Shown one piece after another: positions 1 to 51,912 of a DNA stretch of 64,000 bases. Numbering within the stretch: the first letter of the stretch is position 1; each line of letters begins with the position of its first letter. The DNA lies in the NCBI RefSeq assembly GCF_009914755.1, contig NC_060937.1. One strand, 5' to 3'. Source of the DNA: the human T2T-CHM13v2.0 reference genome, Homo sapiens. Below the pieces are notes generated by a model that saw only the letters and a list, made by a program, of their open reading frames with translations, made no database searches and had not been told where the DNA came from. The position numbers were made by a program, and so were the translations under genes.

Positions 1-978
1 GTGTTGGCAGTTACTGGTGGGCCGGTTCCTGGGCCTTAGGTGGTTTGCATGGATGCTGGTAGTGGCAGCAGTGGGCTAGGTGACTGAACAGGTTCTCACG
101 TCGCTGGGAAACAATTGTGCTATGGGTCATGGCAGTAGAGGTGGTGAATGACCCTCTGGGTCCTGCATGCTGTGGGCTGGTGTTGGTGGTGGCTGTGCTA
201 CAGGTCACCACCCACAGTTCCAGACATGCTGTTCTCAGGTTCTTCTGCTCTCTGCAGCAGCAGTGCTACAGTGCCATGTGAAAGGAGGAAGAACCTTGCT
301 TTCACTCCAGATCCCAGGCATGCAGGCCATGTTACACTGTGAGGTTGTAGTCACTACTTAGAGCCTCAGTCAAGCAGGTCTCTGGATCACCTGCCCCAGG
401 CTTCAGCAGCAGTAGCAGAAGTGGGTGTGTGGAGGAGGAGGAGATGTCCTGTTCTCTATGTGTGAGCCTGAGAACAGAGACTCTTCCGCCGGTGGGAGAG
501 GAAATCAAACTAATGAGTATAAATTACTCCAGTTTGCCATTAAAGGGAAGGATAAATATGGTGAGATGGTGGTAGTTGGAAGGAGTTCTGGAGTCTATTG
601 AAGCGTTTGCTGTGTTAATGTGTTTTGTTTTAATAGAGAGAAAATGAACTTAAATATATTGGTATAGCTATTTTATTGAATCAGTTAGCTTTAATTAGTT
701 CCACTTAAGTAGGAAGCAAACATTATTTTCTTACTACTGCCCTTCAATCTCATGTGGCATATGTATCTCTCTAAAAGCTTTTCTAGTCAGTTTTGTCAAT
801 TAGCTCTATCTCATTTTCAGATATTGAATTACTTGTTTCATCTAAATTAGTACTTCCATATAGTGTACAATCAGACTGTGTCCCTTCTCCAAGCTCAACC
901 TAGGCCTGCTAATTCTTACACAAGCCAAGGGAAGGAGGGGCCTGATCAGTTCTTCAACCCTATTTTTTTACTCTCTTT

Positions 979-40723: not shown

Positions 40724-41748
40724 GGGCTCTCTGCTGCCGGCCCCTAGGCTTGTGATTTGCGCAGAAGAAAAAGGTGACCATGCCAGCTCTCTCATTCAGG
40801 ACTGTGGCAGAGACTGGAGTCTTGCTCACCTTTTTCAGACCATGAGAGGTGAATTAGTCAAACTCTGGTTGAGGGATAAAGAGAGCTGAGGTGCCATCTT
40901 CCTAGCCTCATTGTTTTCAATACCCTTGTTGATCACATTTTAATGTTATCAGCAGGAGTCATAAATAAGTTACACTGTGTAGATATGAGTTATGAAACTA
41001 GACTGTAAATGAGAATCCAGAGGCCCTCAGCAGTTTGTTTCCTAAAGTTCATATATCAGCCTTTTCACCTCTAATACATTTGACAAGTTGGACCAGCCTT
41101 TGATTTGATTTTTATGTGTCTCTCATGAACAGACTCTTTTCCGTCTGCTTCTAGGACTAATTAGAAAGGAGATACATGACTGTACAAAAATACCATTAAG
41201 GCAAGTGAAAATAAGAAAATCAGTAATGTTGGTTCTCTTTGAATAAATAATAAGGGTTATTAGAAGTTATTGACACAGAAAAAACCCAGAGGACCCAGTT
41301 AATGAAAAGTCAAAGCACAAAATAGCACATAATATGTTTTGATAGCATAAATTTCACTATTTTGATTGGGCTTGAATATGTGTTGATGTTTAATTTGTCT
41401 ATGAAAATATATTCTGTGTATCATACTATACCATATTTTATGTAACATGACATTGATTAATCTTGTGTTTGTGGATATTTCTTTTTCCATAGTGATGACA
41501 TATTGCAAAAATCCAAACTATGTACTTAAACCGTGCTATTCACTCAAAGGCACTTATTTGCATAATACTATATTGGTTCTATTGCTTTATAAATTAATTC
41601 TCTTGATTCTAAAGAAATACTTAAATTCATACTTGTATTTTATTGGTACTAGTTTGATGCCAATTTTCATGAACAATTGAGGCAGAATTTTACTTTAATA
41701 TTATGAATTGTATAATACCTTTTAAAGTGTGGTTTCCTTTATTTACAG

Positions 41749-41988
41749 ATCACTTGAAAAACTGACTGTTGATGGGAATGAACTGAGTTTTTTCCCCCAT
41801 GGAATTTTGAAGCTTAACCTGACAAAAATTCAGTTTGAGAATAATTTCACTCATCCTTGTTTTTGGAGAGATAATTATTTGAATAATCCACAACAACTTA
41901 CTCAAATTATTTCTTTGTTCATTGTCCAAAATAAACTACATAAATTTTATGATAAGATCCCAGTAGAAGTTCAGAAGTTACTAAAATG
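41749..41988 (+). CDS. LRRC63: LRRC63 coding exon (240 nt, phase 2-2), last LRRs and post-LRR helical region: (R)SLEKLTVDGNELSFFP...IPVEVQKLLK
   Basis: ttcctttatttacAG acceptor; TG|GTGAGC donor; lies within ORF 41729..41992. Confidence 0.93.
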
Positions 41989-42589
41989 GTGAGCAAATGC
42001 TGAAGCCCTTTTAACCAAAATATACCTTTAAGCATTAAAATGTTCTTCATTACAGGCTTAGATGACAGTGTCACTAACATGCACACATACTCCATGACAC
42101 ACACAAAACCATACACACAATTCTTCAAATCGCTCCATCCAGTTCTTCAGGTATAATAATGTAGTCTGAATCCGGCCCCCTTGTGTGATATTCTCAAGTT
42201 GTTACTTAAATCCAGTGTGAAATATGAGTTGTCTCTATGGCTGTTGCATAAATCTTTTCTATAAATGTCTAAGTTCACAGAAGTGGATTCTTCCAAAAAA
42301 ATTATTTGGCTCCAGACACACTATTCTAGGAGGTGTTTCACTCCACTGTGATGTCATGGAGACCAGGAATGGAGCAGGCATGCATGGAGTAACCTCCCTC
42401 AGGGTATCAATGACCAGTGTTGGAATCATTGCCTAATCTCAAGACCAGGGTACTTAAACTGCCACATCCTTACAATCCACTTAGGCTTGTCGCTTACTTT
42501 CTTCAGATGGTAGAAGACGATTTTCATTGAATTATTGACCATCAGTGCTTAGGTTATTAATTTAACAAATATTTGCTATGTGCCTAAGT

Positions 42590-44800
42590 AAAATGGCTTC
42601 CCAGGAATACATAAATTAGAAACATTGACTCAATAAAAGGCAGAAAACCTAAACAGCCTAGTAACTATTGGAGAAATTGAACAGTGGTTAAAAATCTACC
42701 AACGAAAAAGGAACCAGGCCCAGAAGTTTTTGATTTTATGGTATTAAGATGTCAATATTCATGAATGCACATGAGAAAGCAAGAAAAATCACAAAGGCAG
42801 TAATTTTTTTGAAGAATTATAACCTAACTAGTGTGTGGTAAACAGATATGGGATCATGAGATTTGGATTCACCACAAGGTATTTGGGAAGCTGAACTTGA
42901 GATTCCTGAATTGCATGTGGACCCCAAAAGAGGCTAAATGGTCCCAGAGCAGCGAACTAACTCTCCCAGCAGAAAAAAAGTGTTTGAGAGAAACATCCTT
43001 GATTTAGACTGTAAAGTTTCCAGAAAATTACATTCAAATGAATATTAGCTCACAGCTTAAAGAAATTTCCAAATATATGAGGAAACAAGCCACCAAGGAA
43101 AAAGCAAAACAATCAAACAGATACTAATTTCCAAGGACCTAGGATATGAGTATTGCAACTGTGACCAGGAAAATATGAGAAAGAAATGTTAAGTAAAATG
43201 AAATTCTAGAAACTAAAAATATAATAGTTAACATTAACTCAATGCATGAGTTAAACAGCAGATTATACACACCTGAAGAGAGATCTGAAAAAATTATAGT
43301 AAACATGTAGACCGGAGGTAAAGAGATTGGAGAAAAAAGGACATGATTTAACATACACTTGGATACTCAGAAAGTGAGAACAGAGAGAATGGTGGGAGTC
43401 ATTATTCAATGAGATAATGGCTACAGATTCTTAGAAGTAATAAAAGATATGAATTCGCAGACATCATCGGGAGCTCTATAAAAGCTAAGTAAAATACCTT
43501 GTGGTAAAACTGAAGAACCCCAAAGACAAAGATAAGAACCTAAAATCAGCCAGGAATAAAAAATCCCTTACAAAAAACAACAAATCAACTGCCAGCCACA
43601 GTGGACCAGTGACTGAAAAAAAATATTATTTTGCCCAGCAAAGCTTTCAAGAACAAGAGAAAACATGGTATTTTCAGATAAACCAAAACAGAATTTACTC
43701 ACAATAAATTTTCACCAAAGGAAGTTGCAAAGGATGTACATCAAAAAAAGAAAAATGATTCCAGAAGCAAGTTCTGAGAGGCAAGAAGGAATGGTGAGAA
43801 AAGCAGTTGGAAAATATGTAGGTAAACAAACATGATCTCTATGAAATAACAATGTCTATGATATGGGGTTTAAAAAATATAACTAAAACCAGACATCAAA
43901 CAGTTAGAAATATAATTTTTAAAAGATACTTTTTATGATAGGAAGAAACAAACCTAATGTAGGAATATATTAAGTGAAAAATGTGCAAAACATTTATGGA
44001 AAAAGCTGAAGCTTTATAGAATAGTAAAGAAGGCTGAAATAAATGGAAGAGTTATAGATATTTAGGGATAATAAGACTCAGTACTAAAAACACGTTATCC
44101 CCAAATAGAGCTATAAATTCAATGCGATTCTGGTGAAGATGCCAATAGAATTTTCTCAGAAACTTAATAAGCTGATTCTAAAATGTATATGGAAAAGGAG
44201 AAGATCCAAAATAGTCAAAATAAATCTGAAAAAAAAAAACCCTAACATAAAAGCCTTGCCCACCAGACATCAAGACTTACTATACAAAGTTAGAGAAGGT
44301 AATAAAGGTTGGTATTAAGTGCAAGGAAAGGCAAATCAACCAATGGAAGAGAAAACATAGTCCAGTTATTTTGTTCTCATGCACGTGGGAAAACTTGACA
44401 TTTTGACAGAATAGCACTGTGGATCAGTAGTGAAAGAATAGACTTTGGAATAAATGATGCTGAGACATTTAGTCATCCACAAGGAAAAAACAATAAAATC
44501 AGATTCCAGCTATATAAATGTCACCATCAGACACACAAAAAAATCATTTCCATTTTGATTAAAGATTTAAATATGAAAAGCAAAACTTTAAAGCTTTTAC
44601 AAGGAAGTGTAGAAGGCTCTCTGTATGACTTCATGGTAGGCAGACATATCTTAACTGCAAAGCAAAAAATATAAACAGTAAAGCAAAGTTTTATAAATTT
44701 GACAAAAGTGTAATATTTACATAAATATAAGATACTATCAATGAAATTAAAAGACAAGCCATTAACTGGAAGAAGATATTGCAGTGCTTAAAATAGTTGA
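42590..44800 (+). mobile_element. Old L1ME-like fragments; they continue at about 47300-47840 after MER44
   Basis: Degenerate ORF1/ORF2 motifs (LNKLILKCIWK in ORF 44133..44318). Confidence 0.6.
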
Positions 44801-45068
44801 ATAATATATATATATTATATATATATAGTAGTCGCTATAGATATATATACTATATATCTATATATCTACTATATAGATGTAGTAGATATATCTACTGTAT
44901 AGATATAGTAGACACTATATACATATATATATATATAGTAGTCATCCCTTATCCTTGGGAGATGCATTCCAAGACCTCCAGTGGATGCCCGAAACCATGG
45001 GTAGCACTGAACCTTATATACATTGTGTTTTTCTATACATGCATATCTATAATAAAGTTTAATTTATA

Positions 45069-46908
45069 GGGGTGGTGGCGCCTGAGGTCACCATGGCTAC
45101 CGAGCGCCAAACCGCAGAGCCGGTGGTGCCTTTGTTCGTGGATCAATACTTCACTCGCTGGTACAAAGCAGATGTCAAAGGAAGATCTTGTAAGGACCAC
45201 TGTATACCACAGCACTCTAACCGAATATGTGTCATCACATTGGCAGAATCTCATCCAGTTCTTCAGAGTGGAAAAACAATTAAAAGCATTCCCTGTCAGA
45301 TCAGTCCCAACTGTAGCAGACTTCAGAACAAGGTCTCTGGGAAATTTAAGTGGGGGGCACAGTTTCTAACAGAACTTGCACCTCTCTGTAAGATTTACTG
45401 CTCAGATGGCGAAGAATATACTGTATCTAGTTGTGTTAGAGGATGTTCGATGGAAGTGAATGAAAAACATTCTCCATAAGCCATCTATTCTTCAAGAAAA
45501 GCCATCACTGAAGGCTACATTGCAGTTGAGTTACCCAAATTTGAAGAAAGTAAAAACATAACAGAAGGGTTACTGACACAAAAACGGTATGAAGAAGTCA
45601 TGGTGAAATGCATTAATGCCACAACAGTGACGTCATGAGGACTGACATGGAGCAAAAAGCAAAGTGGGATTCTTGTTACCTGGCCTAAACCATCAGTGCA
45701 CGAAAGGAGAAGAACCAGTATCTGTGAAGCATACTTCACAGCCATAGGCCGAGGAGGCCTGGTGCTTCACTTACCTTCGTTTCCCCTCTCTGGCTTGCAT
45801 AATGAGCCTTGGTTCCCATTTGTCTTCAGCCTGCCAGATCTGGCCTGCCCATGTACTTACCCTGTTCTCTTGCATCTCTCTAACAACTGGCATGCAAGGA
45901 ATGTTTTTCTGATTAAAAACAAACAAACAAAGCTCTTCAAAGAAAATTTAGAAAGTATAGAAAAGTTTTAAGTAGCTAAGTAAAAATAATTTACGCATTA
46001 TCCCATAATCCAGAAGTAAATACATTTGACCCTTGAATAACATGGGTTTAAACTGTTAGAGGGTACCATAAACGAATCAAAAATATATCATTAACCAAAC
46101 ACAAAACCCACTTATAGAGCAGGCTGACTTTTCATATACTCAGTTTCCAAAGAGCCGACTGCAGGACTTGAGTTATGTGTGTATTTGGGTATATGTGGAA
46201 GGTCCTGGAACCGATCCCCCATGTAAACCAAGGGCTAACTGTACTACATTTTAACCTACTTCTGTTTGAACATTATGGTATGGTTATTGCTTTTGCCTCA
46301 TTGTCCTATTAGTTTGAAGTTTAAAAAAACCTAACCCGCCTTTCTTACCCAATCTGCTATAATGTGACGACCAAAAAGTCTAGTCCCAGCCCATCTGCCT
46401 CAACTCCTCTCCCTTTTAGGTTGTAGGGAAGAGGCTGGAGTGCAGATTATATCTTCTGCCCTCCTTATGCCAACAAGATGGCCTTCCCCTCTGAAACAAA
46501 GTAAAACTGCAACACTGTGACTGCTTAAATGAGGGATATGTGAAAAGGCTATGAAAAATACAAAAGCTTTCCTAGGAAATGTATTATAATGCAGTGGGAA
46601 GCTAATTACTGAAATATGCATATTGTAGTCACTCAGTCTCACATACTCTAGTTACCAGCAAATAAGTTACTGAGAATATGTCATTCAAAGGCGTAGAAGC
46701 CTTTGAAAGGAGCAAATGCTTTCACATCATTTAAACTAAAAAAAAAAAAAAAACTCCAACAACTATGAATTTATAGTTTAAGATCAGTTAACACTGAATT
46801 TCAAATAAAAGGACTATAAAACTTGTCATTTTTCTGTAAGGGCTGTAACACATAAATACATTTCAATATCCCTGTTTTTAAATAAAATACACATTTATAC
46901 AGAAAAAA
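45069..46908 (+). pseudogene. FAM206BP: Processed pseudogene of ABITRAM/FAM206A (Simiate), with short 5' UTR, CDS-like 45093-45638 and about 1.26 kb of 3' UTR
   Basis: Intronless translation [25 protein letters not shown]...[18 protein letters not shown]...INATTVTS matches recalled ABITRAM; +1 and -1 frameshifts with a TAA at 45477; AATAAA at 46881 followed by an A-tail remnant; degenerate TSD (45054-45068 / 46906-46915). Confidence 0.92.
46023..46241. mobile_element. MER8-like (Tigger-derived MITE) within the pseudogene 3' UTR
   Basis: TA|catttgacccttgaa ... ccaagggctaactg|TA inverted termini; body matches recalled MER8. Confidence 0.75.
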
Positions 46909-48337
46909 GTTTATAAATTAGGCACAGTAAGAGATAACTAATAATAACTAACAATAACTAATAACTAATAAAATAATAATAACTAATAATAAAATGAGAT
47001 AATTATAACAGTATGCCAGTATCACTACTGTTGCACTTTGGGGCAATATTAAGTAAAATAAGGGTTACCTAAACAAGTACTGCAATACCACAACAGTTGA
47101 TTTGATAACTCAGAGGGCAACAATGGGTAGCGTCTACAATGTGGATACATTGGACAAAGAGATAATTCCTGTCCCAGGTGGGCAGTTTAAAACTTACAAA
47201 TTGCTTATTTACGGGATTTTTCACTTATTATTTTTGGACCACAGTTGATAACTGAAACTGTGGAAAGCAATACCTTCGATAAGAGGACACTACTGTATAT
47301 CTTCCATAAATCAATAAGAAAAGATATAAACCATAGACAAGTAGATAAGTGATAGGAATATGAAATTCATGAATGACGATATACAGATAGGTGATAAACA
47401 TGAAGAATGTAATATCACTAGTAATCAAGAAACTGCAATGTAAAATAGCAACAATCTTTTTTTAACTTACCTATTTTTATCAAAATTTAAAAGACTGATA
47501 TTGTGCTAGCTTTGGATGCCCAAAAATATGACTATCATCATGTATCATTGTTGGTACTATAAATTGGTGAAAGCTTCTTGGAAGGCAATTTGACAGTTTC
47601 TTAGACTTTAAAAGAGCACCTTAAATCTCAGGAATCTGTCTTATAGAAATAGTTACATGTAAACACAAAGTTAGATACAGGGATTATAACTGCAGCCTAA
47701 ATCTGCCTCAGTCAGAGAGTGGTAAAATAACTTATGGCATATTCATACTATAAAACATTATGATGCTGTTAATAAGAATGAAGTAAAACAAAATGTTTTG
47801 ACATGGAAAGTTGTCCAAGACATTTTATTAAGTAAAAAAAGCAAATTGTTCCCACAGACACATACATACACAGTGAGGGTGCACACATGTGAGAAAGATT
47901 CCATTTCTGTAAGAAACAGTTACTTATCTAGGAGCTGGAGGGGACAACCCAAGGGAAGAGCTTTAGTTATTCTAGGGAGAGGAGTTCCAGTGATTGAAGA
48001 GAGGAATAAGCAGGAATCTCTGTGTTTTTCTCTCTATATTTCCTTATTGTTTGGAAATTTTACAAGGACTCATTTTCATGTAAATAAAAACTGACACAAG
48101 TGAATTATAAATAAAAGCAGCTGGAGGAGGAGCTGATAACAAATAGTTGGGGACATAGGGGAAAGATTCAGGGATGAAATAGTATTTGAGAAGGGTCTTG
48201 AAGGACCAGTAAAATTTGGAACTATGTCTTGTGTTCAAGGGACATTCCAGAAAGAGGAAACAAAATGGGAAAAGAGGGATGTGTACAAAGAGAAAAATAA
48301 ATATTCAGCCAGAACAAAACATCCATAAAGGGTAGTG

Positions 48338-48636
48338 GACCGGGCGCGGTGGCTCACTCCTGTAATCCCAGCACTTTGGAAGGCTGAGGTGGCAGATCAT
48401 GAGGTCAGGAGATCGAGACAATCCTGGCTAATGTGGTGAAACCCTGTCTCTACTAAAAATACAAAAAATTAGCGGGGCGTGCTGGCGGGCACCTGTAGTC
48501 CCAGCTACTCAGGAGGCTGAGGCAGGAGAATCACTTGAACCCAGGAGCCTGAGGTTGCAGTGAGCCAAGATTGTGCCACTGCACTCCAGCCTGGGCAACA
48601 GAGTGAGAATCTGCCTTAAAAAAAAAAAAAAAAAAA
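48338..48636 (+). mobile_element. Alu (AluSc/Y-like)
   Basis: Full dimer; TSD-like aaagggtagtg / aaagagtagcg. Confidence 0.92.
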
Positions 48637-48646
48637 GAGTAGCGGT

Positions 48647-48980
<334 letters not shown>

Positions 48981-49709
48981 TTAGCTAGTTGTCCATTGGA
49001 GATCACTGAATGCATTGGAAGTTTTTTTCTTCAGGCCTTGAGAGTCACTGAGTCCAAATAGCACAAATAGACCTGGCAGTATGTCACAGATAGACTAGTG
49101 CAGGGGAAGGCTGGGTGGAGGTCAGTTAAAACACTCATGTCCATAACAGGTAAGGAGGGATTGATCCAAAGTAATAAGTATGGGTATGAACAGGCAGGAA
49201 ATGCAAGACAAATTATGGAGGTAAAATTAACATACCTAGGTATGTGAGCCGAGTGAGAGAGGGAGGATGAAAAATGACAAAGGGTTCAATCTCATCAAAG
49301 ATGACTGTGACATTAGTAAAAATAAGAACAGTGAGGGAGGGATTTGTCACCCAACCACTGTCATCCTCCAGTGTCTGCCCTTGGCTTTAATCCTGAATTG
49401 CTAGCTACTGAAAATTTCGGTACTGTCCTACTTTCGCTGAGTTCTTTGGATTGCAGCTCAGCTGTAGGCTTGCACTAAAGTCACTCTAAGCTCAGCTACT
49501 GCTGTCACTCCAATGGCTGCCCTGTCAATTAGCAGCTATGTATGTCTTTTCTGTCCTGTACAACTTATCATTGCTGTCTGCCTCTCTCTGTCTCTCTACC
49601 CACATTGTATCACCTCAGACAGAGAATCCACTTCCATTGAGAATGGGGTCAGAAGACTCATGTTCCACAGATTTTTACCTTGACTTCCTTGAGCATAAGA
49701 ATGATAGAA

Positions 49710-50945
49710 ATTTTTGTTTGTTTTTATTTTTTTCTTTTATTTTTAGTTGGCACATAATTATACATATTTGTAACATACAGGGTGATATTTCAATACATGT
49801 ATATAGTATGTAATGATAAAATCAGCTTAGTATATCCATCACCTTATTTATCATTTCTTTGTGTTGTGAACATTTAAAATCTTCTAGCTTTTTGAAAATA
49901 CACAATAAATTATTGTTAACTATATTCACCTACAGTGCTATAGAACACTAAAACTCCTATCTACCTGTGATTTTTTTTCCATTTTTAACCTCTCCTATCC
50001 TCCTCTTCCTCTTACCCTTCCCAGCCTCTAATAACCACAATTCTACTCTCTACTTCCATGAGCTCAATTTGTTTTTAGTTTCCACATGAGTGCCGTTCTG
50101 TGCCTGACTTATTTCACTTAACATAGTGTCCTCTAGGATCATCCCTGTTGCCACAAATGACAAGATTTTATTCCTTTTATAGCTGAATAGTATTCCATTG
50201 TGTGTACATACCATATTTTCTTTATCCATTCATCTGTTGATAAACATTTAGGTCAACTCCATATCTTGGCGATTGTGAATAGAGCTGCAATAAATATGGG
50301 GGTGCAGCTGTCCCTTCAATATACTGATCTCCTTTGCTTTGGATAAATACCCAGTAATGAGATTGCTGGATAGTATGATAGCCTTATTTTTAGTTTTTTG
50401 AGAAACCGCCATCCTCCATTCTGATGGCTGTACTAATTTACATTTACCACTGAAACTGTGTAAGAGTTGCTTCTTTTCTGCGTCTTTACCAGCATTTTTT
50501 ACTTTTTGTCTTTTTTATAATAGCCATTCTCACTAGAGTAAGATATCTTATTATGGTTTTGATTTGCATTTCCCTAAATATTAGTGATGTTGAGCATTTT
50601 TTCATATACTTATTGGCCAATTTATATGTCTTGTTTTGAGAATATCTATTCTTTGATCATTTTAAAATCAGATTTTTTTTTTTTGCTGTTGAATTAAGTT
50701 CATCATATATTCATTAGTGCCTTGTCAGATGAATACTTTGCAAATATTTACTCCCATTCTGTAGGCTGTTGATTCTGTTGATTTTTCCTCTGCAGTGCAG
50801 TAGGTTTTTAATTCGAGATTAGTCCCATTTGTCTATTTTTATTTTTGTTGCTTATGCTTTTCAAGTCTTAGCCATAAAATCTTTGCCTAGGTCAATGTCC
50901 TGAAACATTTCCACTGTGTTTTCTTCCAGTGGTTTTATAGTTTGT
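49710..50945 (-). mobile_element. L1MA-like 3' portion
   Basis: Typical reverse-strand L1MA 3' UTR and ORF2 end. Confidence 0.82.
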
Positions 50946-51605
50946 TTAAATACTTAAACATATTCTTATAATCTGATGATTGTGAAATGGTATTTCTTTG
51001 CTATTTTGTTTTGTATTCCCCGATTACTAGGGAGATTGAAAAGCTTTACCTGTGTTCTCTTGACATTCATTTTTTCTTCTTCTGTGAATAGTCTATTCCT
51101 GTACTAATGTTAATGTACTAATGGATTAATATTTTTTAACTGATTTCTAACCATTTAAAAATACATTATGGACTCTAATTCCATACTAGGTTATGATAGT
51201 ACCTTTATTTTTTTAAATGATATATTTATTTTGTATCATAAAAAATAACATGTTTATTATAAAAAATTAGAAAATAAAGAAACACATTATAAAGAAACAT
51301 AAAACCCCTGTGATCACATTTCCCAAGAATAATAACTATTTTCAATTTGGGATCTATCATTAGAGTTTTTTCTTGTTATGCATATATACCTTTCTGTTTT
51401 AAAAAGCTAGGATTGTATTATACATATACCTACTTTATTGTTCAGCTTTTTTAGCGTTTAGTCTTTCACTTAATGGGTAGCACTCACCTAGCTGGTAAGC
51501 TCAATGAAGGTAAGGGCAGTATTTTATACTATTTGGAGTCTTGCATAGCACAGAGTCTTTAGTAAAAATTTATTAAATATTGACTTGCTGTTTCCTCCAT
51601 TTCAG

Positions 51606-51819
51606 CACATCCAGGTGTGAATGGTGTCATGGTCCCAAGTTTGGTGAAGGTTTTCGTGTCATCCGATCCTGTGATATTTTTGGAGCATCACAGCTTCCAG
51701 TTATGTTTTATGTCTGTTCTCCTTCTTGCTATAGAAGAATAAAGGAAAGCAGTTTTGTTTTAGATGGTAGTCCTAGTAGAAGAATAGCTCTAGATGTGGA
51801 GTTGTCAAAAGAATTATAG
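51606..51819 (+). CDS. LRRC63: LRRC63 last coding exon, Cys-rich C-terminus: (C)TSRCEWCHG...VCSPSCYRR...LSKEL*
   Basis: tttcctccatttcAG acceptor; phase matches the upstream donor (TG|C = Cys); TAG stop at 51817-51819. Confidence 0.88.
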
Positions 51820-51836: not shown

Positions 51837-51881
<45 letters not shown>

Positions 51882-51912
51882 ATTTATATATATATATTCA
51901 TATATATATATA
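51835..51912. repeat. (TG)n(TA)n microsatellite in the proximal LRRC63 3' UTR
   Basis: Directly visible. Confidence 0.95.

What the first reader, a model, noticed from the sequence alone, without database searches (positions are those of the whole stretch)
41888..51729. LRRC63 C-terminus resembles the LRRC58 BC-box/cullin-box plus Cys-rich module: candidate ubiquitin-ligase substrate receptor
Seen: after the LRRs the spliced protein reads PQQLTQIISLFIVQNKLHKFYDKIPVEVQKLLK|CTSRCEWCHGPKFGEGFRVIRSCDIFGASQLPVMFYVCSPSC. This has a CxxC...CxxxC arrangement. Recalled knowledge: LRRC58 ends PPTLLELAARTI...DLPGNLLRYL...CPNPKCGG...RQIKFVDFCGKYRLPLMHYLCSPEC and has been described as an Elongin BC/cullin adaptor for CDO1 turnover. 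RVIRSCDIFGASQLPVMFYVCSPSC aligns without gaps to RQIKFVDFCGKYRLPLMHYLCSPEC, and IPVEVQKLL sits where the cullin box lies. Inference: poorly characterised LRRC63 may be a CRL2/CRL5 receptor with a Zn-binding or cysteine-sensitive tail. Caveat: the BC-box is degenerate (QLTQII, with Ile at the usual Cys/Ala position), so it could be a decayed or decoy receptor.
Basis: partly seen in the sequence, partly recalled or inferred. Interest (0 to 1): 0.8.

Follow-up and report, generated by a model that had tools for sequence, protein, structure and literature searches.

The report
LRRC63 tail matches LRRC58 ligase module
The end of the little-studied sperm protein LRRC63 is an evolutionary relative of the part of LRRC58 that plugs that protein into a ubiquitin-ligase machine, so LRRC63 is probably an unlisted protein-degradation receptor, although binding has not been tested.

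Summary
Window 41888-41988 and 51606-51729 encode PQQLTQIISLFIV...IPVEVQKLLK|C|TSRCEWC...CSPSC.

The likeness to LRRC58 is homology, not chance:
- A profile of 16 mammalian LRRC63 tails finds only LRRC58 (9t7v_B) among PDB sequences, at E 4.5e-6 over residues 241-349.
- The same profile finds 7 LRRC58-like proteins among 143 hits in 1.84 billion representatives.
- hhalign gives 98.5% probability over 76 columns covering the BC-box, Cul2-box and the CxxC...CxxxC element.

Across 123 family members the BC-box Leu is kept in 122 and the four Cys in 119-123. The Cul2-box pattern is intact in human.

Human and other anthropoids have Ile at BC-box position 5. That position is A/C/S in 55 of 58 non-placental LRRC63 rows but in only 15 of 52 placental rows.

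The LRRC58 "cysteine-sensor" residues and its -VLLG end are not kept. LRRC63 is absent from the 2026 E3-ome tables.

Verdict: a new candidate member of the LRRC58-type CRL2/CRL5 receptors. Elongin B/C binding is inferred, not shown.

The parts
41749..41988 (+). Penultimate coding exon of LRRC63. It encodes the last LRR strand, the FTHPCFW cap turn, the BC-box and the Cul2-box.
   Evidence: Translation and AG/GT splice sites. In the AF2 model the helices are 487-497, 500-503 and 509-515, with pLDDT above 90.
41897..41923 (+). BC-box helix core L487-T-Q-I-I491-S-L-F-I495. Numbering is the in-window residue plus 29, by alignment to the 587-aa orthologue P0004. It aligns to LRRC58 L262-L-E-L-A266-A-R-T-I270.
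   Evidence: Alignments. Leu is kept in 122/123 family rows. Position 5 is A41 C32 T25 S10 I9 V6. ATT (Ile) at 41909-41911 was read.
41957..41983 (+). Cul2-box I507-P508-V-E-V511-Q-K-L-L515. It aligns to LRRC58 L282-P283-G-N-L286-L-R-Y-L290.
   Evidence: Pro is kept in 104/123 rows and the last Leu in 103/123. The Cul2-box pattern is quoted from PMC13061254 (passages).
51606..51819 (+). Last coding exon: Zn-loop cysteines, beta-hairpin, C-terminal strand and the TAG stop at 51817-51819.
   Evidence: Translation. It is 100% identical over 70 aa to P0003.
51616..51627 (+). C521-E-W-C524, the first cysteine pair. It aligns to LRRC58 C296...C301 with a 2-residue deletion.
   Evidence: Cys is kept in 123/123 and 121/123 rows.
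51652..51714 (+). Predicted two-stranded beta-hairpin (residues 533-541 and 544-553). The turn D540-I-F-G-A-S545 aligns to the LRRC58 C-cap D317-Y322.
   Evidence: AF2 models. Alignment. The LRRC58 two-stranded sheet and C-cap are described in PMC13156300 (passages).
51715..51729 (+). C554-S-P-S-C558, the second cysteine pair. It aligns to LRRC58 C331-S-P-E-C335.
   Evidence: Cys is kept in 122/123 and 119/123 rows.
51754..51768 (+). F567-V-L-D-G571, a short predicted strand after the Zn element. It is conserved as ESSF[VI]L[ED]G in placentals and may be the counterpart of the LRRC58 C-terminal -VLLG.
   Evidence: Strand 567-570. C-terminal tails are listed. The equivalence is an inference only.

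Best explanation
The last ~90 structured residues of LRRC63 (human 484-571) form the same module that follows the LRRs in LRRC58. In order it has:
- a BC-box helix;
- a Cul2-box helix;
- a four-cysteine zinc knuckle;
- a long beta-hairpin whose tip caps the LRR solenoid.

By homology, LRRC63 is a substrate receptor. The BC-box Leu487 would insert into Elongin C. The I507-P508...L515 box would contact CUL2 (or CUL5, as LRRC58 can). The zinc knuckle would fix the angle between the LRR/C-cap substrate surface and the cullin arm.

The substrate is unknown, and the protein is testis/sperm-enriched.

Shown here: homology, conservation and the predicted fold. Inferred: zinc binding, Elongin B/C and cullin binding, and ligase function.

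The family-wide ancestral state has a canonical BC-box. Placental mammals, and anthropoids most of all (Ile491), have drifted at position 5, so human binding may be weaker.
For: 1. Profile of 16 mammalian tails against 1.84e9 representatives: 143 hits at E<=1e-3. Seven of the 143 are LRRC58-like (P0145 1.7e-6 to P0193 9e-4) and match over profile positions ~2-114. P0191 is an LRRC58 orthologue: 9t7v_B at E 1.6e-93 in one stretch.
2. The same profile against PDB sequences finds only LRRC58, at E 4.5e-6 over residues 241-349; the next hit is at E 3.6. A profile of 12 non-mammalian LRRC63 tails gives E 1.1e-5.
3. hhalign with the LRR strand removed gives Prob 98.5, E 2.7e-15 over 76 columns. The BC+Cul2 part alone gives Prob 97.3, and the Zn part alone gives Prob 96.0.
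4. Full-length P0004 aligns to 9t7v_B in one collinear stretch, 341-562 vs 116-339, at E 7.1e-21. Of the 60 PDB hits shown (180 matched), it is the only one that runs past residue ~472.
5. Conservation over 123 module rows: BC-box Leu 122; position 5 only A/C/T/S/I/V (123/123); Cul2-box Pro 104; four Cys 123/121/122/119.
6. The AF2 model has pLDDT above 90 for ~300-570. It shows helices at 487-497 and 509-515 and a hairpin at 533-553 flanked by the two Cys pairs. This matches the description of LRRC58 in PMC13156300.
7. In LRRC58, A266F, A267D, L282D and L290D abolish function. LRRC63 keeps hydrophobic or small residues at the aligned sites (I491, S492, I507, L515).
8. The protein is real. It was seen with two unique peptides in human sperm and described as testis-elevated (PMC6356071, passage).
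9. Proteins named LRRC63 or LRRC63-like, or closely matching them, occur in shark, gar, bichir, frogs, turtles, Capitella and Hydractinia.
Against: 1. Human LRRC63 fails the strict BC-box consensus [TSP]Lxxx[CAS]xxx-phi (PMC13342108) at two places: Q486 at position -1 and I491 at position 5.
2. Position 5 is canonical in only 15/52 placental rows, against 55/58 other LRRC63-like rows and 7/7 LRRC58-like rows. Position -1 is T/S/P in 3/52, 21/58 and 7/7.
3. A bulky residue at that site (A266F) disrupts Elongin B/C binding of LRRC58 (PMC13156300 legend).
4. The BC-box exon alone finds no BC-box protein in the PDB; its 3 hits are all LRR proteins at E>=0.1.
5. LRRC63 has 0 occurrences in the E3-ome supplement, which collates cullin and Elongin interaction evidence. 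LRRC58, LRRC28 and LRR1 are there.
6. The tail folded alone has no significant solved analogue: Foldseek best E 0.11, VIA best Z 2.8. Those libraries do not show 9T7V.
7. Some rodents have a damaged Cul2-box, for example P0029 with ISDAV and no Pro.
Confidence: 0.6

Rival explanations
1. Decayed or decoy receptor. LRRC63 descends from an Elongin BC-binding receptor. In placentals, and most of all in anthropoids with Ile491, it has lost or much weakened Elongin C binding. It now acts as a non-ligase LRR scaffold in sperm or as a substrate trap.
For: - Position 5 is canonical in 15/52 placental rows against 55/58 non-placental rows. Anthropoids carry I or V.
- A266F kills LRRC58 Elongin B/C binding.
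- The placental clade sits on a long branch (0.48, SH-aLRT 98) in the quick tree.
- LRRC63 is absent from the E3-ome tables.
Against: - The BC-box Leu is kept in 52/52 placental rows.
- Position 5 never becomes aromatic, charged or Pro in 123 rows.
- Position 6 stays S/A/C in 52/52 placental rows.
- The Cul2-box pattern is kept in most placentals.
- Such conservation of residues that are surface-exposed in a monomer is hard to explain without a partner.
Confidence: 0.27
2. Purely structural tail. In the LRRC63 family the helices, zinc knuckle and hairpin only cap and stabilise the LRR solenoid and never recruit a cullin. The likeness to LRRC58 reflects common descent of a capping domain.
For: - No interaction data for LRRC63 were found in any of the 31 listed papers, out of 32 that hold the name.
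- Position -1 of the BC-box is off-consensus family-wide, with T/S/P in only 21/58 non-placental rows.
Against: - Non-placental LRRC63 has L-x-x-x-A/C-A-x-x-phi followed by phi-P-x-x-phi-x-x-x-L. This is the VHL-box pattern in the same register as the experimentally validated LRRC58 one.
Confidence: 0.08
3. Chance resemblance of two Cys-rich tails, that is, convergent zinc ribbons.
For: - The single-exon search is only marginal (E 0.052), and ribosomal zinc-ribbon proteins follow closely at E 0.6-1.3.
- The tail-only fold search weakly lists Rlp24/eL24 and FYVE zinc folds.
Against: - Library-wide E-values are down to 1.7e-6.
- PDB-wide E is 4.5e-6 with the next hit at 3.6.
- The alignment is collinear through two helices, both Cys pairs and the hairpin.
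- The non-Cys BC/Cul2 part aligns on its own at Prob 97.3.
Confidence: 0.01

Closest known systems
LRRC58 (human; PDB 9T7V chain B), substrate receptor of CRL2/CRL5 for CDO1
   Same: - Both have LRR solenoid, then BC-box helix, Cul2-box helix, CxnC, long beta-hairpin (C-cap), CSxxC.
- They are collinear over 222 residues.
- The profile and hhalign matches are significant.
- Both have a Cul2-type box and no LP-phi-P Cul5 box.
   Different: - LRRC63 has a ~330-residue N-terminal extension of low predicted order and fewer LRRs.
- The first Cys pair is CxxC rather than CxxxxC.
- BC-box position -1 is Q and position 5 is I, instead of T and A.
- The LRRC58 residues needed for cysteine-dependent instability are deleted or changed: P297, N298, C319, Y322 and the -VLLG* end.
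- LRRC63 lacks the acidic Ser-rich linker.
- The two fall in separate clades in the quick tree (SH-aLRT 92).
- LRRC63 is testis/sperm-enriched.
LRR1 (CRL2-LRR1; PDB 7PLO chain O, 7SHK chain L)
   Same: - It is an LRR protein that binds Elongin BC-CUL2.
- In the representative-chain search it gives the longest structural alignment to the LRRC63 model: 232 residues, Z 19.4, rmsd 3.6, model range 71..566.
- It is rank 2 for the tail alone: E 0.16 over 97 columns.
   Different: - The tail-only match is not significant.
- No sequence-level match was seen.
- No four-Cys element was detected by any search here.
- LRR1 has an N-terminal domain of another kind (recalled, not tested).
VHL-box (BC-box + Cul2-box) receptors in general (VHL, FEM1B and others)
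   Same: - Leu at BC position 1, a hydrophobic residue at position 9, and a phi-P-x-x-phi-x-x-x-phi box about 20 residues later.
- The consensus is quoted from PMC13342108 and PMC13061254.
   Different: - Human LRRC63 departs from the consensus at BC positions -1 and 5.
- The motif sits inside a larger Zn/hairpin module seen only in the LRRC58/LRRC63 superfamily.
- Pfam has no model that hits it.
LRRC28, LRRC14, LRRC42 (listed as BC-box LRR receptors in the E3-ome)
   Same: They are listed as LRR-type CRL2 and/or CRL5 substrate receptors.
   Different: They were not compared here because no sequences were in hand.

Membership tests
LRRC58-type C-terminal module (BC-box, Cul2-box, Zn loop, two-stranded C-cap sheet) | Significant sequence-profile similarity over the whole module | tested here: met
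   7 LRRC58-like hits of 143, E 1.7e-6 to 9e-4 in 1.84e9 proteins; 9t7v_B at E 4.5e-6, residues 241-349; hhalign Prob 98.5 over 76 columns.
LRRC58-type C-terminal module (BC-box, Cul2-box, Zn loop, two-stranded C-cap sheet) | Module follows the last LRR directly, collinear with LRRC58 | tested here: met
   a single stretch, 341-562 vs 116-339 of 9t7v_B, at E 7.1e-21.
LRRC58-type C-terminal module (BC-box, Cul2-box, Zn loop, two-stranded C-cap sheet) | Two cysteine pairs flanking the hairpin (candidate Zn ligands) are conserved | tested here: met
   123, 121, 122 and 119 of 123 rows. C521, C524 and C554 are invariant and C558 is at 90% or more in 62 sequences. Which LRRC58 cysteines bind Zn is not named in the main texts, so the assignment C296/C301/C331/C335 is my inference.
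LRRC58-type C-terminal module (BC-box, Cul2-box, Zn loop, two-stranded C-cap sheet) | Long two-stranded beta-sheet between the cysteine pairs | tested here: met
   AF2 predictions only. Strands are 533-541 and 544-553 in the full model, and 78-86 and 89-98 in the tail model.
LRRC58-type C-terminal module (BC-box, Cul2-box, Zn loop, two-stranded C-cap sheet) | Residues required for cysteine-dependent instability (P297, N298, D317, F318, C319, Y322, Y329, L330, -VLLG*) | tested here: not met
   Alignment against the list. P297/N298 fall in a deletion. C319 aligns to F542 and Y322 to S545. The protein ends ...SKEL. Only D540 and Y552 match, and I541 and V553 are conservative changes.
BC-box/Cul2-box (VHL-box) substrate receptors of CRL2/CRL5 | BC-box consensus [TSP]Lxxx[CAS]xxx-phi | tested here: not met
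   Human has Q-L-T-Q-I-I-S-L-F-I. Leu and phi are met. Position -1 (Q) and position 5 (I) are off-consensus. The non-placental family meets position 5 in 55/58 rows.
BC-box/Cul2-box (VHL-box) substrate receptors of CRL2/CRL5 | Cul2-box phi-P-x-x-phi-x-x-x-phi downstream of the BC-box | tested here: met
   I507-P-V-E-V511-Q-K-L-L515. It aligns to LRRC58 L282-P...L290.
BC-box/Cul2-box (VHL-box) substrate receptors of CRL2/CRL5 | Physical binding to Elongin B/C and CUL2 or CUL5 | not testable with these tools
No interaction data were found.
SOCS-box (BC-box + Cul5-box) proteins | Match to a SOCS-box model or an LP-phi-P Cul5-box | tested here: not met
   Pfam scan of the 132-aa tail gives 0 families at E<=10. 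The sequence has IPVE, with no second Pro.

The most novel reading that the evidence does not exclude
LRRC63 and LRRC58 are the two surviving vertebrate branches of a pre-bilaterian family of LRR receptors. The family is defined by a VHL-box fused to a zinc knuckle and a hairpin C-cap. On this reading LRRC63 is a germline-specific CRL2/CRL5 receptor. Its own stability or activity would be tuned through the Zn/C-cap element by a small molecule or redox cue, as LRRC58 is by cysteine. It would control a sperm metabolic or structural protein.
Probability: 0.12. Interest if true: 0.8.

Novelty: new member of a known kind. Interest (0 to 1): 0.55.

Why it matters
- LRRC63 has no described function: "function unknown" in PMC5031903, and only gene-list mentions by the titles and abstract openings of the 31 listed papers that hold the name (main text read in three of them).
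- It is missing from the 2026 E3-ome tables.
- Placing it in the LRRC58-type receptor family gives it a concrete, testable biochemical role.
- It adds a candidate testis/sperm E3 receptor to the human list.
- It shows that the unusual LRRC58 cullin-binding/Zn/C-cap module, which has no match in the Pfam copy used here, is an old metazoan domain rather than a one-off.
- The placental drift at the Elongin C contact offers a natural series (A, C, S, T, V, I) for asking how much bulk that pocket tolerates.

Tried and rejected
- ESM Atlas look-alike search of the tail gave no usable hit.
- Searching with the third-clade protein P0148 to get a name returned only itself.
- Fold search of the full AF2 model was dominated by generic LRR proteins. 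9T7V does not appear among the rows listed by the Foldseek library (entries to 2026-04-08) or the representative set. A direct structure-to-structure comparison with LRRC58 was therefore not possible.
- The tail folded alone gave no significant solved analogue: Foldseek best E 0.11 (Rlp24), VIA best Z 2.8 (FYVE/eL24).
- Model coordinates are not exposed, so Cys-Cys distances could not be measured.
- Complex prediction was not used. Elongin B, Elongin C and cullin sequences were not obtainable inside the session, and its reference option covers only bacteria, archaea and phages.
- The careful tree search did not finish in 288 s, so only the quick tree is reported.
- The odd C-terminus of the short isoform-like record P0133 could not be placed in the window.
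- One paper search with min_terms 2 was uninformative because it did not force LRRC63.
- Supplements of the bioRxiv LRRC58 deep-mutational-scan paper are closed. Whether Ile or Thr is tolerated at LRRC58 A266 could therefore not be read off.

Full report
**1. The observation**

- Window 41750-41986 (+) translates to ...NNPQQLTQIISLFIVQNKLHKFYDKIPVEVQKLLK.
- The exon ends with TG at 41987-41988, followed by GT. The next exon begins with C at 51606 after an AG, which gives a Cys codon.
- 51607-51819 translates to TSRCEWCHGPKFGEGFRVIRSCDIFGASQLPVMFYVCSPSCYRRIKESSFVLDGSPSRRIALDVELSKEL*.
- The stated limits 41888 and 51729 are the first base of the Pro codon of PQQL and the last base of the last Cys codon.
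- All 8 annotated coding exons in the window have AG in front, and the 7 internal ones have GT behind.
- Joined in a script, they give 558 codons without an internal stop. The product is 540/558 identical to the orang-utan-cluster LRRC63 P0003 and 498/558 identical to macaque P0004.

Residue numbers below are the in-window residue plus 29, by alignment to the 587-aa P0004.

**2. Is the likeness to LRRC58 more than chance?**

PDB chain 9t7v_B prints ...DPPTLLELAARTIKIRNISYTPYDLPGNLLRYLGSASNCPNPKCGGVYFDCCVRQIKFVDFCGKYRLPLMHYLCSPEC....

Single sequences give weak results:
- The last exon alone has LRRC58 as its top PDB hit, but only at E 0.052. Ribosomal zinc-ribbon proteins follow at E 0.6-1.3.
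- The BC-box exon alone finds only LRR proteins: 3 hits, all at E>=0.1.

Profiles settle the question:
- I collected 50 placental LRRC63 orthologues and cut the tails of 16 of them (alignment A2). That profile was searched against 1.84 billion representative proteins.
- It gave 143 hits at E<=1e-3. Seven of them carry the LRRC58 hallmark F[LVI]D[FL]CG, and five of the seven end in ..LLG. Their E-values run from 1.7e-6 to 9e-4, and the matches span profile positions ~2-114, which is the whole module.
- One of the seven, P0191, matches 9t7v_B at E 1.6e-93 in one stretch, so these are LRRC58 orthologues.
- Against all PDB sequences the A2 profile hits only LRRC58, at E 4.5e-6 over residues 241-349. 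The next hit is at E 3.6.
- A profile of 12 non-mammalian LRRC63 tails gives E 1.1e-5.
- Local hhalign of the 16 mammalian tails, with the LRR strand removed, against 7 LRRC58-like tails gives Prob 98.5, E 2.7e-15 over 76 columns.
- Cut into parts, the BC-box plus Cul2-box stretch (32 columns, no cysteines) gives Prob 97.3. The Cys/hairpin stretch (37 columns) gives Prob 96.0. The cuts were taken from a joint alignment, so these two numbers are not fully independent.
- Full-length P0004 aligns with 9t7v_B in one collinear stretch, 341-562 vs 116-339, at E 7.1e-21. Of the 60 PDB hits shown (180 matched at E<=1e-5), it is the only one that continues past residue ~472.

**3. Residue mapping**

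| Element | LRRC58 | LRRC63 |
|---|---|---|
| BC-box | L262, A266, A267, I270 | L487, I491, S492, I495 |
| Cul2-box | L282, P283, L286, L290 | I507, P508, V511, L515 |
| Cysteines | C296, C301, C331, C335 | C521, C524, C554, C558 |

The first cysteine pair has a two-residue deletion in LRRC63, giving CxxC instead of CxxxxC.

In LRRC58, A266F disrupts Elongin B/C binding (PMC13156300, legend read). A267D, L282D and L290D abolish function (bioRxiv 10.1101/2025.09.23.678073, section 11 read).

That LRRC58 cryo-EM paper describes a BC-box, a canonical CUL2-box, a zinc-bound loop and a ~30 A two-stranded sheet whose far loop caps the LRRs (passages). Neither main text names the Zn ligands, so the assignment to the four shared cysteines is my inference.

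**4. Predicted structure**

AF2 on P0004 with 62 homologues gives pLDDT above 90 for about residues 300-570 and below 50 for most of residues 21-295. Its elements are:
- helices 487-497, 500-503 and 509-515;
- strands 533-541 and 544-553;
- helix 556-564;
- strand 567-570.

The order is therefore BC helix, Cul2 helix, first Cys pair, long hairpin, second Cys pair, as described for LRRC58. The tail folded alone gives the same elements.

Fold searches could not compare it with 9T7V, which is not among the rows listed by either structure library.
- The full model hits generic LRR proteins. LRR1 from the CUL2 complex (7plo_O) gives the longest alignment: 232 residues, Z 19.4, rmsd 3.6.
- The tail alone has no significant match: Foldseek best E 0.11, with 7shk_L (CRL2-Lrr1) second at E 0.16; VIA best Z 2.8.

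**5. Conservation**

Across 123 rows that cover the module (52 placental rows, many of them close copies; 58 other LRRC63-like; 7 LRRC58-like; 6 others), one search gives:
- BC-box Leu in 122;
- position 5 as A41 C32 T25 S10 I9 V6 and nothing else;
- Cul2-box Pro in 104 and the last Leu in 103;
- the four Cys in 123, 121, 122 and 119;
- the "RSC" Cys539 variable (C 67 of 123).

By clade:

| Clade | Position 5 canonical [CAS] | Position -1 T/S/P | BC-box Leu |
|---|---|---|---|
| Placental LRRC63 | 15/52 | 3/52 | 52/52 |
| Other LRRC63-like | 55/58 | 21/58 | 57/58 |
| LRRC58-like | 7/7 | 7/7 | 7/7 |

Within placentals, position 5 varies by lineage:
- Ile in apes, Old World monkeys, Aotus, Sapajus, Microcebus and a seal;
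- Val in marmoset and lorisoids;
- Ala in Prolemur;
- Thr in cats, dog, rhino, rabbit and hystricognaths;
- Ser in Tupaia;
- Cys in murid and cricetid rodents.

The Leu and the Cul2-box stay fixed.

**6. Family and distribution**

Named relatives of the non-mammalian tails are LRRC63 of paddlefish, gar, frogs, turtles and a shark, an unnamed bichir protein, a Capitella protein, and "LRRC63-like" of Hydractinia.

A quick ML tree of 86 module rows puts 73 LRRC63-like rows on one side. The 7 LRRC58-like rows plus 6 others fall on the other side, with SH-aLRT 92. The careful search was not finished.

Pfam finds only LRR families in LRRC63, in an LRRC58 orthologue and in two other members, and nothing in the 132-aa tail at E<=10.

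**7. What is not shared with LRRC58**

The deep mutational scan of LRRC58 names P297, N298, D317, F318, C319, Y322, Y329, L330 and the terminal -VLLG* as needed for cysteine-dependent instability. In LRRC63:
- P297/N298 fall in the deletion;
- C319 aligns to F542 and Y322 to S545;
- the protein ends ...SKEL.

A cysteine-sensing role is thus not supported. A short strand F567-V-L-D-G571 (ESSF[VI]L[ED]G in placentals, "SLxxxLYG" in many other LRRC63 proteins) may correspond to -VLLG. This is speculation.

**8. Literature**

- 32 papers in the library hold "LRRC63" and 31 were listed. None has it in the title. By the titles and abstract openings shown, all look like omics or gene-list mentions; I read LRRC63 passages in only three of them.
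- The 7 papers that also hold "ubiquitin" (6 listed) are, by their titles, not about a ligase role.
- PMC5031903 says the function is unknown (passages).
- PMC6356071 lists LRRC63 among testis-elevated "missing" proteins seen with two unique peptides in human sperm (passage).
- PMC10376747 lists it in a sheep sperm-motility QTL interval.
- None of the three LRRC58 papers mentions LRRC63 in the main text (find).
- The E3-ome compendium supplement mmc1.xlsx (3.8 million characters, not cut) has 0 occurrences of LRRC63 and of LRRC69. LRRC58, LRRC28, LRR1, LRRC14 and LRRC42 are listed as BC-box receptors.
- bioRxiv supplements were closed, so the LRRC58 scan tables were not seen.

**9. Verdict**

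- The resemblance is homology (about 0.95).
- The ancestral LRRC63 family very probably is an Elongin BC/CUL2-type receptor (about 0.8).
- For human LRRC63 I put about 0.6 on retained receptor function and about 0.27 on a weakened or decoy state.
- Zinc binding by the four Cys is likely (about 0.85). Cysteine sensing is unlikely (about 0.1).
- This is a new candidate member of a known kind. It is useful rather than startling.

Noticed in passing
window 41984-41992: If the intron after 41988 is not spliced, the frame reads AAA TGG TGA (K W stop). This gives a protein ending ...KLLKW that keeps the BC-box and Cul2-box but lacks the whole Cys/hairpin element. Several library representatives from other mammals end this way (P0079, P0084, P0093, P0110).
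   Followed up: partly
P0133 (87 aa); window 41729-41902: A human-like short record shares the exon up to ...RDNYLNNPQ and then continues with unrelated residues, so it loses the BC-box. The continuation was not found in the window by tblastn.
   Followed up: partly
P0004 residues ~5-16 (encoded upstream of the window): An N-terminal motif LLRRPLPPK is conserved from primates to a frog LRRC63 (P0070) and, as LLRRPLPE, in an unnamed distant LRRC63-like library protein (P0109). It sits at the head of a long region of low predicted order. Its role is unknown.
   Followed up: no
window 51754-51768; tails listed: Many non-mammalian LRRC63 proteins carry (S/T)LxxxL(L/I)YG about 12-17 residues after CSxxC, placentals carry ESSF[VI]L[ED]G, and LRRC58-like proteins end in [KR][VI]L[LI]G. 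These may be one homologous C-terminal strand.
   Followed up: partly
P0148, P0174, P0175, P0189, P0192, P0137: Further unnamed LRR proteins carry a canonical S-L-x-E-[LI]-[SC] BC-box, a P-containing box and CxxC...CSxxC. They group with LRRC58-like rows in the quick tree, so the module family is wider than LRRC58 plus LRRC63. P0148 has no named relatives.
   Followed up: partly
window 51838-51912: A long (GT)n(TA)n microsatellite lies in the 3' UTR directly after the stop codon.
   Followed up: no
P0029 (Mus caroli), P0044 (Rattus), P0055, P0056: Some rodent and other placental LRRC63 proteins have a damaged Cul2-box: ISDAV without Pro, DPVVV, or a deletion. These could serve as natural tests of cullin binding.
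   Followed up: no
PMC5031903: LRRC63 mRNA is reported as one of three genes that classify HIF2A-mutant paragangliomas and is highest in those tumours. This is curious given that the protein looks like a VHL-box-type receptor.
   Followed up: no
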